Assembly (NCBI GenBank): GCA_037379345.1
Contig: CM074511.1
Span: 66,718,862 to 66,782,861 of the forward strand
Origin: Perna viridis
Taxonomy: Eukaryota
DNA: 64,000 nt
Direction: 5' to 3'
Shown: in pieces, positions 15,001 through 21,000 of the stretch
How the letters are laid out: every line of letters starts with the position of its first letter
Position numbering within the stretch: position 1 is the stretch's first letter
Program-made: the position numbers

Positions 15001-18000
15001 GTTGCTCATAAAATGGTGCGTCTAGGTTTGGTGAAAGATGAAAAGAAAACTATGACAAGGTGAACAAATCGGTTTTCAGGGAGCAAACGGATAAACCGTA
15101 ACAAACCACGAGCTCAAGATCACAACCATAACTTCAATTTCGTAGCAGTAATACCCTGTTCAGAGAGTCTAGCTCGGTCCGCGTAGTTACGGCAAGCTCT
15201 GGCACGGGGCGTTAAACCAATGATGCTTCTTTGGAAGTGTTCATTTAGAGCAAAAATGTCGAAAATGCGGTTTTTACTAATTCTGTAGCTAATTTTGGTC
15301 CTCAAACTGATTTTTCACAAATTTGCATTTTTTGAGAACAATAGACGTTTTTCTACAGATTCTAATGCTTTAAGGCATTTGAACAACAGTTTTTTTTCAA
15401 ATAGGCCTTACTTGTGATCATAATCCTGGGGAAAATGTTTCAAATGTATTAATCTTTGTCTTTTATCGTTGTGATTAATTGTATTACACAACATGTTTTG
15501 ATGCTTGTATTACACATTTGCGTCTCAATAGCTTGAATTATTGTTTTACTTTCCACACTCTTTCTCTCAATCACGATGCAGATTTTTGCATGCTTGCGTA
15601 TCCAAGAACTTAAAAGATTTACTTATGTAATTATGTATAGTATTGTTTCAATATTTTACAGCAGTTGTCAAGTTGCTTTTTGTTAAATCCTTGTCATTGT
15701 GAACCTAGACATATTCGACAAATCGTTTCCTACTCAATAAGTGTATAAGCTTACAAAGAAAATTAGGAAAGAAAATCTTTATGTTAACGAGACAGGCTTG
15801 TTAGACAAAATTCTATCGTGTCAATATGTCGAGTATACACGCAAACCGTGCATTCAACTCCCAAGTTGTGTTTGTTCTTCTCAAGTATCTATAATTCATA
15901 CCGGTATTAGCTTATATTTCTTTCAAATAAAAAAGAAATCTTATTGAAGTGCTGTCTCGACACGACACCGTACTACAAACATTGCATTACGTGGCTATTA
16001 TAAGCATCAACATGGATGTCTCAAGATTACTTCAATGTCAACAGTTTTCCCAATACTAATGACAACGACGTAGATATATACATGATTACTGATAACCATA
16101 GATTGTGGGTTGAAACATTTCAATTGAAATGTATAAGTTGCCAGGTGTAAGTATTTTGTATTGATTTTGTCAATACCGTTTTGAGTTTAAAGTGTTTAAA
16201 CAATAAACAAAATATTCTCTTTTAATGATAAACAAATTTCATATTTTTGTCCATTTGTAGCGGTTTATGGTCTGATAGACAATGAGCATGTGACGATAAA
16301 GTCTTCTCAGTTTTCAGTACTTCATGATATAATATTTATTTATTGCAATCCAACAGATAGATATAAATACAAAATAACTCATATTAATACAGTGGTTCAA
16401 GGAGTAACCTGTCATCAGCAGCATCTGAATCAAATACAAAGTATGATCTGCATCGAAAAAAGAATTGTACTCAAGAACTATTAAAAATTAAAACTGTCGA
16501 AACAGGAAGTCAAATCCATCACCAAGAGGTTTTACCATGTGCATTACAATCAAGTGAAATGTACGAACATCATTGATAAGCCATTGAAAATGTATGGAGC
16601 GCCGCAGCTGCCGTATGCGTACTTACTTCTATATATGTACATACTTGTCCATATATACACATACTTTGTCTATTTATGCAAATATTTGTTTATATGCACA
16701 TATTTGTTTATATGCACATACTTTTTCTCTTTATGCATATACTTTTTCTCTTTATGCACATTCTCCATGCAGGTCCGGGTGTTGAAGAATAGGCCTGCAG
16801 CAGCGCTAAGTTCGTCGTAAAAGGCGACTAAATAGTGCTCAGAACCCTAGCCGGGGGCTAGGGCGCTCTGCCCACAGAGCAACTGGAATGTGTGCCCCAG
16901 GAGGTGGAATGGGGTACCCCTGGTGTGTTACATGCTGGGGTTGACAGTGGCAATCAAAATTTGTCGACCCCATTGTCCTTGTGTCCCATCCCTTTTTCAT
17001 TTCATCATCATTTCATGTTCATTGTCTGAATATACCTGAAATATTGCTGCTCGGACGTTAATCCCCAACAGACAAACAAACAAACTCTTTATGCACATAC
17101 TTTGTCTTTTTATGCAAATATTGTCTATATGCACATACCTTTCTCTATATGCACATGCTTGTTCTATATATGCACATACTTTTTTCTATATATGCACATA
17201 CTTGTCTATATATGCACATACTTTTTTCTATATATGCACATACTTGTCTATATATGCACATACGTTTTTCTATATATGCACATACTTGTCTATATATGCA
17301 CATACTTGTCTATATGTGCACATACCTTTCCCTATATGCACATGCTTGTTCTATATATGCACATACTTTTTTCTATATATGCACATGATTTTTCTCTATA
17401 GTTTTTCTATATATGTCACGTAGTTCTCCATGTGTATACTTTTATCTGATTTTCCTGGTAGTTCTTCGTGGGTATACTCATATTCAATATGAGAATGGCC
17501 ATGCATATAATTTACATTTTCCGGATGGAAGGAATGCTGGGTAAAAGTAAGCATTAAATAAAAGGCAGAGCCTCTGATGCTGACTGTGTTAAAGAAAATT
17601 GATTGCAAGAAGTGTACGAAAATTTGGAACTTGAAGCCATAACTCCTGATATCATTAGTCTGCTCTCAAAACAAAATTTGCAAATGTTAGGTATCCCAAA
17701 TGCATGTAATATGATGAAATTGCAGGCAGAGAGTGTCAAATATGGAAAATCCAAACTACAGGAAATAAGAGGATATTCCGGAGCACCGAAATTTGATATT
17801 GATAAATTAACGGTGGACAATTTGTTAGATTGTGCTTCCAAATATCTGAAATAGAAAAACTTTTATTAGTATCAGAGCGCACAACATATCGTCGAATGGC
17901 CCACTTTGGATTGTCAAAGCCACAGTTTTTTTCGAAATAGACGGTGATGATCTGGAAAGAGTTGTTTCGGAAACCATTAAAGATTTCCCTGTGTGTGGCG

Positions 18001-21000
18001 AGCAAATGCTTCGACAACTGTTAAGAACGAAGTGTTTAAAAATACTCAAGGAAATCATTCATGAAATAGATTTGTCTGGAGTTCACGTAAGAAATGCAGG
18101 TCCTCTCCATCGGAGTACTTATATAACATAATGGGCCCTAACCATTTGTGGCACATAGACACCGACCATAAACAAATTCGATGGAGTTTTGTAATAACTG
18201 GTGGCACTGACGGATCTAGTAGGGTGATTCAGTTTCTTTCATGTAATGACAACAACTCTTCTAAAACTGTTATGAAAAGCATCCTTACGGGTGTTGGTAA
18301 CTATGGCATCTATTGAAAATTAGATCTAACAAGGGCCGGGGAAATATATCTGTAGCGGATTTTGTGCTGAAGAAACGAGGTGAAAGCGGCATTATCATAG
18401 GTCCCAGTACCTACAATCAACGGATCGAACGACTCTGGAGGGACATTTTTGAATGCGTATTTTGCTACTACTTTTATAATCTTTTCTATTACATGGAGGA
18501 TCATTGCATTCTTGACCCCTTAAATGGTCAACATTCGGCACTTCACTACATGTTCAAGGATAAAGTTAACAGAAGGCTGAATGTGTACGTGGTATACGGA
18601 ATAAGGACTATAAAGGCTTCCTCTCTGAAAGTTTGGAGCCCAGGACAAATTTAGAACCCAGTCGGTATGCAAATGAATGAAGCGGAATTAACAGAAATAA
18701 GAGTTGAAGGGGACAATAACGATTGTGTTGCTAGAGATGGGAGAAACACCAATATTTCAACCCTTAAATCTCATAAGTGTAGGGAGATCCTAAGCAATGA
18801 ATTAAATAGAACAGGCGAGAACTTTGGTATTGATGACTACTGGAAGTCTTTGGTTATCATATCGGCAAATACTTAACATTAACATAATCATAAAAATAAT
18901 ATGCCATTTAAATACAAACATGATTATCAAAGAATACTGCCTTAGAATCAAACTATTTTGTATTGATTCAGTATTGTTCTTTTCAACAGTTAACGGGGTA
19001 GCTAAAATTGTTTTTATTATTAACCATCAACCACAAAATATTGAAAGTGAACCCTACTATACCAATATATATCTACTGACCAAGTATCATTTCCATAACA
19101 TGTCTAGTATCCGAGAAACGGGCGTTAGCCAGAGAACTTAATCAAGATAGGGATGGACGTAGGTATGTTGGGACGGACAAGGGTATAACGTTTAAAAAAA
19201 TTGTCATTTTATAAATTTTCCGAAGACCGGAAATGAGGGAATGTCGTGATACATGAATGAAATGACAAGTTGGTGTTGATGTTTAAGCAAAATTTATCGA
19301 ATATTTTTTACACCAAATCCTTAGTTGTCATTACATAAAAGAAACATAATCCCCTACTAAATCCGTCAATGCCATAATTTTTACAAACCTCCATCGAATT
19401 AGTTTATGGTTGGTGTCTATATGCCACAAATGGTAAGGACCCATTACGTTATAAGTTCTCCGATGGAGACGACATGCCTTTCTTACATGATTTCCAGACA
19501 AATCTATTTCATGAATGATGTCCCTGAGTCGCCATCGTTGTATTTTAAACCCTTCGTTCTTAATAGTTGTCGAAGCATTTGCTCGCCACACATAGGGAAA
19601 TCTTTAATGGTTTCCGAAACAACTCTTTCCAGATCATCATCGTCTATTTCGGAAAATTGTAGCTTTGACAATCCTAAGTGGGCCAATTCGACGATATGTG
19701 GTGCGCTCTGATACTAATAAAAGTTTTTCTATTTCAGATATTTGGAAGCACAATCTAACAAATTGTCGAATGTTAATTTATCAATATCAAATTTCGGTAC
19801 TCCGGAATATCCTCTTATTTTCTGTGGTTTTGGATTTTCCAAATTTAACACTCTCTGCTCGCAATTTTATCATGTTAGTTGCATTTAGGATACCTAACAT
19901 TTGCAAATTTTGTTTTGAGAGCAGACTAATGATATCAGGAGTTATGGCTTCAAGTTCCAAATTTTCCTACACATCTTGCAATCCCATTTTCTTTAACACA
20001 GTCAGCATCAGGGGCTCTCTGCCTTTTGTTTAAGGCTTACTTTTACCCACGATTCCTTCAATCCGGAAAGAGTAAAGTATATGCATGGCCATTCTAATAT
20101 TGAATATGAGCATACCCATGAAGAAAATCAGGTAAAAATATACACATGTGTATACTATGTGCATATATAGAAAAACTGTAGATAAAAAGTATGTGTATAT
20201 ATAGACAAGTTTGTGCATATATAGAAAAAAGTATGTGCATATATAGAAAAAAGTATGTGCATATAGAAAAAATGTATGTGCATATAGAGACATAAGGCAG
20301 CTGCGGCGTACCTCAACTTTTCACAATAGGTAGTAAATGAACTAGAATGGGGGGAAAGTAAAAAGAAATCACGTTTTCAATTAACAATTAGTATGTAAAC
20401 TATTTTCTACTATTCGACAAATATTTTACCCCAACAAACAAACAAACAAACAAATCAATGTTTTCCATGTTAAAAAAAAACATATATTTACTTGAGATAA
20501 TATTACACACATTGTATTTAAAAGATTTTAATGCAATCGGATACGCTTTACTCTTTTTGCACTTTTACTTTTTAAAAGTAGATAAAGGGCAAAACGTGGT
20601 TAAGTTTTAAAGCAACTTCAACGACGAAACGCTTCAACAGACCCATAAAATATTAAATGTAAAACTCATTAAGTCATATGATAGCAAATAACAAATATAT
20701 ACGTATATTGACATCATTTCTAAACAGCTAGTTAGGAGAAAAAGTGATATAATGTGTTAACATTTATTTATCATAGAAAACAAACCATCGTATTCTTTAA
20801 CATATGCCTCGTTGAAATCAATTCGTGGGTCATTAACGTGTCTTCATGTCGTTATTTCAGTTTTTATATTGAAGAAGTGTCATCGTTCTATTAACGTAGG
20901 TTGTATTATTTGTCGGGGCCTTTCATAACTTACTTGAAGGTGTGTTTACACTCACTGAAGAACATTCGGTGATCTCTGTAAGTATTTACCATTTTTAAAG

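What the first reader, a model, noticed from the sequence alone, without database searches (positions are those of the whole stretch)
16593..20310. A second, divergent IS3EU-like family shows the same full-copy plus inverted-5'-half geometry
Seen: 19322-20310 is an inverted copy of 16593-18252 (about 1 kb, reaching past the first catalytic Asp), with both 5' ends pointing outward. The left terminus TATGGAGC resembles family 2's YACGGAGC, although the two transposases are very divergent. Each arm keeps sequence lost from the other; for example KIQRWRLRD survives only in the right arm. The same architecture twice within 22 kb suggests a recurrent mechanism such as local hopping or template-switch repair. 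Caveat: no TSD is visible and the right terminus lacks about 5 nt.
Basis: partly seen in the sequence, partly recalled or inferred. Interest (0 to 1): 0.65.

Follow-up and report, generated by a model that had tools for sequence, protein, structure and literature searches.

The report
Decayed transposon with two left ends
This is a long-dead IS3EU-type jumping gene whose right end is an upside-down copy of its own first kilobase, a layout already known from maize 'killer' loci, so it is a tidy curiosity and not a new kind of thing.

Summary
Window 19324-20310 is an inverted copy of 16593-18257 (blastn 87% over 988 columns; 91.6% in the non-repetitive part). Both outer ends start with the IS3EU terminal motif TAYGG. 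The encoded protein carries the Pfam integrase core rva_4.

"Full copy plus separate inverted half" is probably the wrong parsing. The window holds only two termini of this family and no native 3' end, so 16593-20310 reads best as one unit bounded by two copies of its own 5' end.

The arms have diverged neutrally: differences fall 13/18/18 on the three codon positions, and all 10 length differences shift the frame, 5 in each arm. Homology stops at both termini and at the inner junction. This rules out an ordinary inverted segmental duplication and an assembly artefact.

The second family (30864-38649) has the same layout and is flanked by a perfect 6-bp target-site duplication, CATTCG. That unit was therefore integrated whole through its two outer 5' ends. 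The finding's own unit has no such duplication (0 of 6), so two tail-to-tail insertions followed by a deletion remain possible.

The closest analogues are maize Mu killer and the Ac killer composite insertions. No genome-wide survey was possible. Interest is modest.

The parts
16593..20310 (.). Whole unit: a decayed IS3EU/GingerRoot-type element bounded by two inverted copies of its own 5' end. No target-site duplication.
   Evidence: Only two termini of this family in the window. Homology stops at both termini. Flanks AAAATG / CCTCAA.
16593..18257 (+). Left arm: terminus, subterminal repeat array, nested insert, 5' leader and the 5' part of the transposase gene.
   Evidence: blastn and the repeat finder. 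Inner end read.
16593..16623 (+). Left terminus, TATGGAGC followed by GCGCCGCAGCTGCC (the TAYGG motif of IS3EU).
   Evidence: Motif as given in PMC12730594 (passage).
16624..17400 (+). Left subterminal array of 20-22-nt repeats, 6.4 + 15.1 copies, split by the nested insert.
   Evidence: Tandem Repeats Finder. Motif count.
16765..17085 (+). Nested SINE-like insert with a (CAAA)n tail. Absent from the right arm and not part of the element.
   Evidence: Other copies at 40554-41059 and 39575-39758, 85-92% identity. No tRNA or Rfam match.
17603..18876 (+). Transposase gene, broken. The true start is uncertain and may lie a little upstream or in a small upstream exon.
   Evidence: Coding evidence lies in five stop-free stretches over three frames: at least 3 frame changes and at least 1 in-frame stop (one search read by eye).
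18131..18654 (+). Integrase-type catalytic core (Pfam PF24764 rva_4, profile positions 6-160 of 194), split over two frames.
   Evidence: E 7.2e-21 and 4e-21. Sub-threshold profile hit to solved retroviral integrase cores, E 0.056.
18877..19323 (.). Unique spacer between the end of the gene and the right arm. Nature unknown. Holds no terminus and no subterminal repeat.
   Evidence: No Pfam family on its ORF.
19324..20310 (-). Right arm: an inverted copy of the element's 5' end up to just past the first conserved Asp motif. It is a broken partial gene with at least 3 frame changes and at least 1 premature stop.
   Evidence: Frame counts read by eye.
20156..20292 (-). Right subterminal array, 6.8 copies of the same 20-22-nt repeat.
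20283..20310 (-). Right terminus: TACG followed by CCGCAGCTGCC, the left terminus minus 5 nt.
30864..38649 (.). Comparison locus ('family 2'): an rva_4 element with inverted 5' arms 30864-31353 and 38228-38649 (96.2% identical) and a perfect 6-bp target-site duplication CATTCG at 30858-30863 and 38650-38655. Its gene is broken. One N run lies inside and was left as it is.

Best explanation
Window 16593-20310 is one dead IS3EU/GingerRoot-type DNA transposon unit whose native 3' end has been replaced by an inverted duplicate of its own 5' kilobase. That duplicate holds the terminus, the transposase-binding-type subterminal repeats, the leader, and the first part of the transposase gene up to just past the first catalytic motif.

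The layout is A-B-A', with both TA termini facing outward. It most likely arose in one aberrant transposition or repair event on transposase-cut or replicating element DNA. Two routes fit: pairing of two identical 5' ends with fusion of the inner broken ends (a composite insertion, as in the maize Ac killer alleles), or template switching / large-loop snap-back copying that ran off at the free terminus.

A unit with two identical ends is a legitimate substrate for the transposase, and the sister family in the same window was integrated in exactly this form. Since then both arms have decayed neutrally and equally, and the locus is now an inert fossil. When new, a read-through transcript would have folded into a ~0.85-1 kb double-stranded hairpin, the structure that makes Mu killer and Ac killer silence their own families.

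Shown: the inverted repeat, the termini, the absence of a third terminus, neutral and equal decay, and family 2's target-site duplication. Inferred: the formation route, integration of this particular unit by its two outer ends, and any hairpin-RNA effect.
For: - Inverted arms at 87-92% identity.
- Both outer ends start with TA and the TAYGG motif shared with family 2. This matches published IS3EU ends TA..TA / TAYGG..CCRTA (PMC10045372, PMC12730594, passages).
- The terminal 19-mer occurs 2 times in the window against 0.00 expected.
- No inverted terminus or subterminal repeat lies in 18650-19323: 451 of 500 and 449 of 500 shuffles score at least as well.
- Homology does not pass the outer termini. 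The anchored extension scores 2.5, reached by 35 of 300 shuffles and 29 of 295 random window pieces. The free local alignment scores 19.0 against shuffles of 14.7 +/- 2.3.
- Homology does not pass the inner ends either: 13.5, reached by 73 of 200 shuffles.
- Arm differences are neutral: 13/18/18 at codon positions 1/2/3 over 213 codons (p 0.60), and 9 synonymous vs 28 non-synonymous against 21% expected (p 0.55).
- All 10 length differences in the coding part shift the frame, 5 per arm.
- Family 2 has the same layout with a perfect 6-bp target-site duplication (chance 4.4e-4).
- Precedent: Ac killer composite insertions carry inverted repeats of Ac 5' ends of 1.8-3.9 kb with unequal arms and perfect target-site duplications. 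Mu killer is an inverted duplication of the 5' TIR plus part of mudrA (bioRxiv 10.1101/2020.01.07.897926, passages; PMC3440606, abstract as listed).
- Hairpin potential: 766 of 854 left-arm bases pair with the right arm in the minimum-energy fold, -1439 vs -644 kcal/mol for a control.
Against: - This unit has no target-site duplication: 0 of 6 matches, and no shared 5-mer within 18 nt outside each end. Point decay cannot explain that: P(at most 1 of 6 surviving) = 2.4e-5 at the arms' divergence. Integration by the two outer ends therefore rests on analogy with family 2, or needs a later small deletion at the right boundary, where 5 nt of the terminus are indeed missing.
- No microhomology is visible at the inner junction (read by eye).
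- No other copy of the family could be examined, so it is not known whether the same inner junction recurs elsewhere.
- The neutral, equal decay of the arms is equally expected for two copies inserted at about the same time from one source.
Confidence: 0.55

Rival explanations
1. Two separate insertions of the same family landed tail to tail within a few kb (local hopping). One later deletion then removed both 3' ends and the DNA between them, leaving a longer left copy and a shorter right copy.
For: - The absence of a target-site duplication across the outer ends is what this model predicts.
- Neutral, equal decay of the arms fits two copies from one source.
- In the IS3EU-related fungal element Styx, about 51% of copies cluster within 150 kb, and tandem-inverted copies and new insertions near the donor are reported (PMC10853768, passages).
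Against: - It needs three events, and a deletion that happens to remove both 3' termini. No trace of a 3' end remains.
- The sister family shows the same geometry with a perfect 6-bp duplication around the whole pair, which this model cannot produce.
- With two different mechanisms, finding the same geometry in both rva_4 elements of the window would be a coincidence.
Confidence: 0.25
2. Kilobase-scale terminal inverted repeats that include the promoter, the leader and the 5' part of the transposase gene are the native architecture of these IS3EU lineages in this genome. They are not an accident of these copies.
For: 2 of 2 rva_4 elements in the window have arms that run into the gene, although the two are only 38-39% identical in protein. 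Family 2's unit was transposed in this form.
Against: - The inner ends of the arms differ between the families. In family 3 the arm ends inside the catalytic core. In family 2 it ends far upstream, after about 68 codons.
- Lesions are split 5:5 between the arms, whereas a long-standing non-coding right arm should carry more damage. This test has low power.
- Published TIRs are above 30 bp, 36 bp and 100-150 bp (PMC12730594, PMC10853768, PMC6839031, passages).
Confidence: 0.12
3. An ordinary inverted segmental duplication or fold-back of chromosomal DNA unrelated to transposition, or a palindromic assembly artefact.
For: Inverted duplications by fold-back priming, with small or large loops, are well documented (PMC7467729, abstract).
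Against: - Homology ends at the transposon termini on both sides and does not enter the flanks.
- The arms differ by 8-13% and by 13 indels, which an assembly artefact would not show.
- No N run lies in 15000-22000.
Confidence: 0.03

Closest known systems
[quoted passage not shown]
   Same: Integrase-type DDE core (Pfam rva_4). TA..TA ends with TAYGG. 6-bp target-site duplication in family 2. Size in the published range of 3.9-12.9 kb for family 2 and just under it for this unit (PMC6839031, passage).
   Different: The inverted arms are about 0.42-1 kb (1.66 kb with the nested insert) and include part of the transposase gene. Papers I read give TIRs of 30-150 bp. This unit has no target-site duplication. 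No tool returned the name IS3EU, so the assignment rests on the end motif, the duplication length and the core domain.
Mu killer (maize MuDR derivative)
   Same: An inverted duplication of the 5' terminal repeat plus the 5' part of the transposase gene, which can form a long hairpin RNA (PMC3440606, abstract as listed; bioRxiv 10.1101/2020.01.07.897926, passages; for the fold here).
   Different: A different superfamily and a different kingdom. Here the left side keeps the rest of the gene. No evidence of transcription or small RNA here. The locus is decayed.
Ac killer alleles: composite insertions made by alternative (sister-chromatid) transposition with re-replication
   Same: Inverted repeats of the same (5') end with unequal arms, fused inner ends and outward-facing termini. 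A perfect target-site duplication surrounds the composite, as in family 2 here (bioRxiv 10.1101/2020.01.07.897926, passages).
   Different: hAT superfamily with an 8-bp duplication. The maize cases come with large flanking inverted duplications, which a 64-kb window cannot show and of which nothing is seen here. The finding's own unit lacks the duplication.
Styx (IS3EU-related element of Zymoseptoria)
   Same: Same transposase superfamily, 6-bp duplication, local reinsertion, tandem-inverted copies, solo TIRs arising de novo (PMC10853768, passages).
   Different: 36-bp TIRs and four genes. The paper's passages that I read describe whole copies in inverted tandem, not a 5' half fused to a copy.
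Bacterial composite transposons with inverted flanking IS copies (Tn10/Tn5 type; recalled, not from a call)
   Same: The two outward-facing identical ends are used together, so the whole block moves and acquires one target-site duplication.
   Different: Those have two complete IS copies around cargo. Here one arm is a truncated copy fused to the other, with no cargo.

Membership tests
IS3EU/GingerRoot | Integrase-related DDE/DDD transposase core | tested here: met
   PF24764 rva_4 at E 7.2e-21 and 4e-21 on two single-frame stretches, and E 1.7e-8 on the right arm. Family 2 at E 6.4e-13. That rva_4 corresponds to IS3EU is my inference; no call gave that name.
IS3EU/GingerRoot | Termini TA..TA, TAYGG..CCRTA | tested here: met
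   Left TATGG, right TACG with 5 nt missing. Family 2 CACGG / TACGG. The exact 8-mer alone is not significant in the window: 2 hits against 1.52 expected. The 19-mer core is: 2 against 0.00.
IS3EU/GingerRoot | 6-bp target-site duplication | tested here: not met
   For the finding's unit, AAAATG vs CCTCAA, 0 of 6. It is met for family 2, CATTCG on both sides.
IS3EU/GingerRoot | Terminal inverted repeats | tested here: met
   Present, but about 1 kb instead of the published 30-150 bp (PMC6839031, PMC12730594, PMC10853768, passages).
IS3EU/GingerRoot | No HHCC zinc-binding motif upstream of the core; first catalytic Asp 100-300 residues from the N-terminus | tested here: inconclusive
   No zinc-finger family was found on the upstream stretches. 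The Asp motif lies roughly 200-250 codons after the first coding evidence (by eye). The gene is broken and its start is uncertain.
IS3EU/GingerRoot | Phylogenetic placement among named IS3EU/GingerRoot transposases | not testable with these tools
Killer-type inverted-duplication locus (Mu killer / Ac killer) | Inverted duplication of the 5' terminus plus the 5' part of the transposase gene | tested here: met
Killer-type inverted-duplication locus (Mu killer / Ac killer) | Transcribed into hairpin RNA | not testable with these tools
   Only a predicted fold is available: 766 of 854 bases paired. No expression data.
Killer-type inverted-duplication locus (Mu killer / Ac killer) | Small RNAs and silencing of the family in trans | not testable with these tools
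   No small-RNA or methylation data.
Composite insertion by alternative transposition | Target-site duplication around the composite | tested here: not met
   Not met for this unit. Met for family 2.
Composite insertion by alternative transposition | Associated large flanking inverted duplication or deletion | not testable with these tools
   The maize cases span 0.3-3.2 Mb (bioRxiv 10.1101/2020.01.07.897926, passage). The window is 64 kb, and within it the flanks are unique.
Ordinary inverted segmental duplication | Homology continues into flanking DNA | tested here: not met
   outer side; inner side.

The most novel reading that the evidence does not exclude
IS3EU-type transposases readily pair two identical 5' ends. 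Broken or re-replicated copies are therefore recurrently converted into 'two-left-end' units that are integrated whole. Because each such unit is a built-in hairpin of the promoter-proximal part of the transposase gene, the superfamily would keep seeding its own silencer loci in an animal genome, an animal counterpart of maize Mu killer and Ac killer. Both rva_4 elements of this window would be examples.
Probability: 0.15. Interest if true: 0.6.

Novelty: new variant of a known kind. Interest (0 to 1): 0.35.

Why it matters

If units with two 5' ends are common, three things follow:
- The transposase must accept two identical ends.
- The genome would hold natural hairpin loci against this family, a route to self-limitation documented so far for the maize Mutator and Ac elements in the papers I read.

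As a single decayed locus, it changes nothing by itself.

Tried and rejected
- Third terminus or native 3' end. The terminal 19-mer at up to 3 mismatches gave 2 hits only. Local alignment of an inverted 48-nt terminus and of the subterminal unit inside 18650-19323 was no better than shuffles.
- Homology beyond the arms. Not significant on the outer side or the inner side.
- Empty-site reconstruction. The flanks are unique in the window. Only the 22-nt tail of the SINE-like family recurs in the right flank, which is not informative.
- Microhomology at the inner junction. None seen by eye.
- A weak tblastn hit of the core piece at 30177-30356(-) (E 0.024) was rejected: no motif in any frame and no Pfam family.
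- Naming the protein. PDB by sequence gave nothing significant. Profiles gave only sub-threshold integrase hits, E 0.056-0.06. NCBIfam gave none.
- N-terminal stretches. No Pfam family.
- Relatives elsewhere. No other copy of either family was seen and no genome-wide survey of convergent pairs was made.
- Rfam and tRNA scans of the window: 0 matches.
- Literature. 'IS3EU' gave 62 papers, 25 listed. A five-term search (IS3EU, GingerRoot, inverted duplication, hairpin, long TIRs; any two required) gave 381 papers, 15 listed, and the only listed IS3EU paper matched on IS3EU plus GingerRoot alone. 'PF24764' gave 1 unrelated paper. These are not exhaustive, and supplements were closed.
- Every protein query was one stop-free stretch in one frame.

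
Full report
**What is there**

The window is AT-rich, with GC 0.29-0.38 per 2 kb. It has three N runs, none in 15-22 kb. I left them untouched. Nothing suggests a human origin. I neither determined nor sought the organism.

- blastn aligns 17287-18253 with 20292-19324 at 87.2% over 988 columns.
- In the non-repetitive part (17400-18253 vs rc 19324-20160) there are 751 matches, 69 mismatches (35 transitions, 34 transversions) and 13 gap events, 91.6% identity, K2P 0.089.
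- The outer ~160 nt of each arm are 20-22-nt tandem repeats: 6.4 + 15.1 copies on the left and 6.8 on the right.
- The left array is split by a ~321-bp SINE-like insert (16765-17085) that has other copies near 39.6-41.1 kb. The insert and the array expansion account for the left arm's greater length.

**What it encodes**

Two single-frame stretches of the left copy match Pfam PF24764 (rva_4, integrase core domain). They are 18131-18316 (E 7.2e-21) and 18313-18654 (E 4e-21), together covering profile positions 6-160 of 194. The right arm's ORF 19331-19591(-) matches positions 2-26 at E 1.7e-8.

A profile of the first-Asp region gives only sub-threshold hits to solved retroviral integrase cores, E 0.056-0.06. 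PDB by single sequence, NCBIfam and the Atlas gave nothing usable.

The gene is broken.
- In the left copy the coding evidence lies in five stop-free stretches over three frames: at least 3 frame changes and at least 1 in-frame stop (by eye).
- The right arm's partial gene has at least 3 frame changes and at least 1 premature stop (by eye).
- The two arms differ by 10 length differences in the coding part. None is a multiple of three. Five are bases missing from the left arm (14 nt) and five from the right (8 nt).

Every protein query was one stretch in one frame. I left out the joined step, so no full-length protein was searched or folded.

**Ends and flanks**

The left end begins TATGGAGC at 16593. 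Read from 20310 on the minus strand, the right end begins TACG and then continues with the same core, which is the left end minus 5 nt.

The 19-nt terminal core occurs exactly twice in the window at up to 3 mismatches, against 0.00 expected. Between the end of the gene and the right arm (18650-19323) nothing resembles an inverted terminus or a subterminal repeat. The 'full copy' therefore has no 3' end of its own.

Homology does not continue into the flanks.
- The anchored outward extension scores 2.5, reached by 35 of 300 shuffles and 29 of 295 random window pieces.
- The free local alignment scores 19.0 against 14.7 +/- 2.3 for shuffles.
- Past the inner ends the score is 13.5, reached by 73 of 200 shuffles.

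The 8-13% divergence of the arms disposes of a palindromic assembly artefact.

The 6-bp flanks are AAAATG and CCTCAA, 0 of 6. At the arms' substitution level a former duplication would keep at most 1 of 6 matches with P = 2.4e-5. Point decay therefore cannot explain its absence.

**The second family changes the reading**

The other rva_4 element (E 6.4e-13) is only 38-39% identical to this one over about 50 residues. It has arms 30864-31353 and 38228-38649: 406 matches, 16 mismatches and 3 gap events, 96.2% identity, K2P 0.039. Its termini are CACGGAGC and TACGGAGC, and it carries a 21-nt subterminal repeat, 4 copies on the left and 1 on the right.

This family also has only two termini in the window. 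Immediately outside them lies the same hexamer, CATTCG, at 30858-30863 and 38650-38655. The chance of this at a fixed pair of positions is 4.4e-4. That 7.8-kb block was therefore integrated as one piece through its two outward-facing 5' ends. It is not a copy plus a stray fragment, and local hopping cannot have produced it.

Its gene is also broken, with at least 2 frame changes, at least 1 in-frame stop, probably an internal deletion, and a ~1.2-kb interruption that holds an N run and cannot be judged. Yet its arms are young. The unit was probably already defective when it was inserted.

**Comparison with what is known**

The papers I read in passages describe IS3EU/GingerRoot as follows:
- TA..TA ends and usually 6-bp duplications (PMC10045372).
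- TAYGG..CCRTA ends with TIRs above 30 bp (PMC12730594).
- 100-150-bp TIRs and 3.9-12.9-kb elements, with 72 of 77 ending TA..TA (PMC6839031).
- A 36-bp TIR in Styx, with clustered, tandem-inverted and donor-retaining copies (PMC10853768).

Both elements here meet the end motif and the core domain. Family 2 meets the duplication. The arm length and its reach into the gene are outside the published range. No tool returned the name IS3EU, so the assignment is by features.

The layout itself is known elsewhere.
- The Ac killer alleles are composite insertions. They carry inverted repeats of Ac 5' ends of 1.8-3.9 kb, unequal arms and perfect 8-bp duplications, and are made by sister-chromatid transposition with aborted re-replication and end fusion (bioRxiv 10.1101/2020.01.07.897926, passages).
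- Template switching during gap filling at TIR elements (PMC8277862, passages) and large-loop fold-back priming (PMC7467729, abstract) are further documented routes to such structures.

**How it most likely came about and works**

The arms end exactly at transposase-type termini and not in flanking DNA. The duplication was therefore made on, or trimmed by, transposase-cut DNA. It did not arise by fold-back on the chromosome.

Differences between the arms are spread evenly over codon positions: 13/18/18 over 213 codons, p 0.60. Of the single-difference codons, 9 are synonymous and 28 non-synonymous, against 21% expected, p 0.55. Frame-shifting indels are split 5:5. The arms were thus essentially identical when selection on the gene stopped, and they have decayed in place since. 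This fits a one-off event or a young subfamily better than an old native architecture, though the test has little power.

My best reading (0.55) is a single aberrant transposition or repair product with two 5' ends, now a fossil. When new, a transcript running from the left promoter through the right arm would have formed a ~0.85-1 kb hairpin. Even now 766 of 854 bases pair, at -1439 vs -644 kcal/mol for a control. Whether it ever acted as a silencer is inference only.

The main rival (0.25) is two tail-to-tail insertions followed by one deletion. It explains the missing duplication but needs three events and cannot explain family 2. A native long-TIR architecture (0.12) and a transposition-independent duplication or artefact (0.03) follow.

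**What stayed unchecked**

No other copy of either family and no orthologous locus could be examined. The protein searches, the metagenome and viral collections and paper supplements were closed. The literature searches found no description of kilobase arms in IS3EU, but they list only part of their hits and do not cover Repbase entries.

**Verdict**

It is a new variant of a known kind, of modest interest.

Noticed in passing
window 16765-17085; also 40554-41059, 39575-39758, 20429-20451: A SINE-like repeat of about 321 bp with a (CAAA)n tail is nested in the left subterminal array. One other copy carries about 170 extra nt, and another is a 5' half. Only the 22-nt tail recurs just right of the unit. 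There is no tRNA or Rfam match. The insert is flanked by a repeated TCTTTATGCACAT, which could be its target duplication but lies in a tandem array.
   Followed up: partly
window 30858-30863 and 38650-38655: A perfect 6-bp target-site duplication, CATTCG, surrounds the whole family-2 pair. The target is nearly palindromic (GAATG T CATTC).
   Followed up: yes
window 38105-38228 (minus strand): The family-2 right arm keeps an open frame for some codons beyond the stretch that aligns with the left copy. The right arm may therefore be longer than the 422 nt that align, and the left copy may carry an internal deletion.
   Followed up: partly
window 34624-35061 and 31986-32090: Inside the family-2 unit there is a 160-nt tandem repeat (2.7 copies) and a 35-nt tandem repeat (3 copies). 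No Pfam family was found on any interior ORF tested (0 of 8).
   Followed up: partly
window 13562-14330: A minisatellite of 42-43-nt units (GGATCCTTGGCAGAAG...-type), about 70-80% alike.
   Followed up: no
window 7476-7654, 12062-12543, 14847-15204, 22508-22807, 23215-23730, 27530-27914, 47878-48496, 54859-55093, 58137-58303: A dispersed repeat family with at least nine pieces in both orientations, 70-95% alike. ORFs overlapping three of them have no Pfam family.
   Followed up: no
window 41438-41585 and 54167-54405: Two self-complementary (palindromic) stretches of about 150 and 240 nt, 75-81% complementary. They may be small foldback or MITE-like elements.
   Followed up: no
window 4167-4865 (minus strand): The longest ORF of the window (232 aa, serine- and basic-rich) has no Pfam family. 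It may be an exon of a host gene.
   Followed up: no
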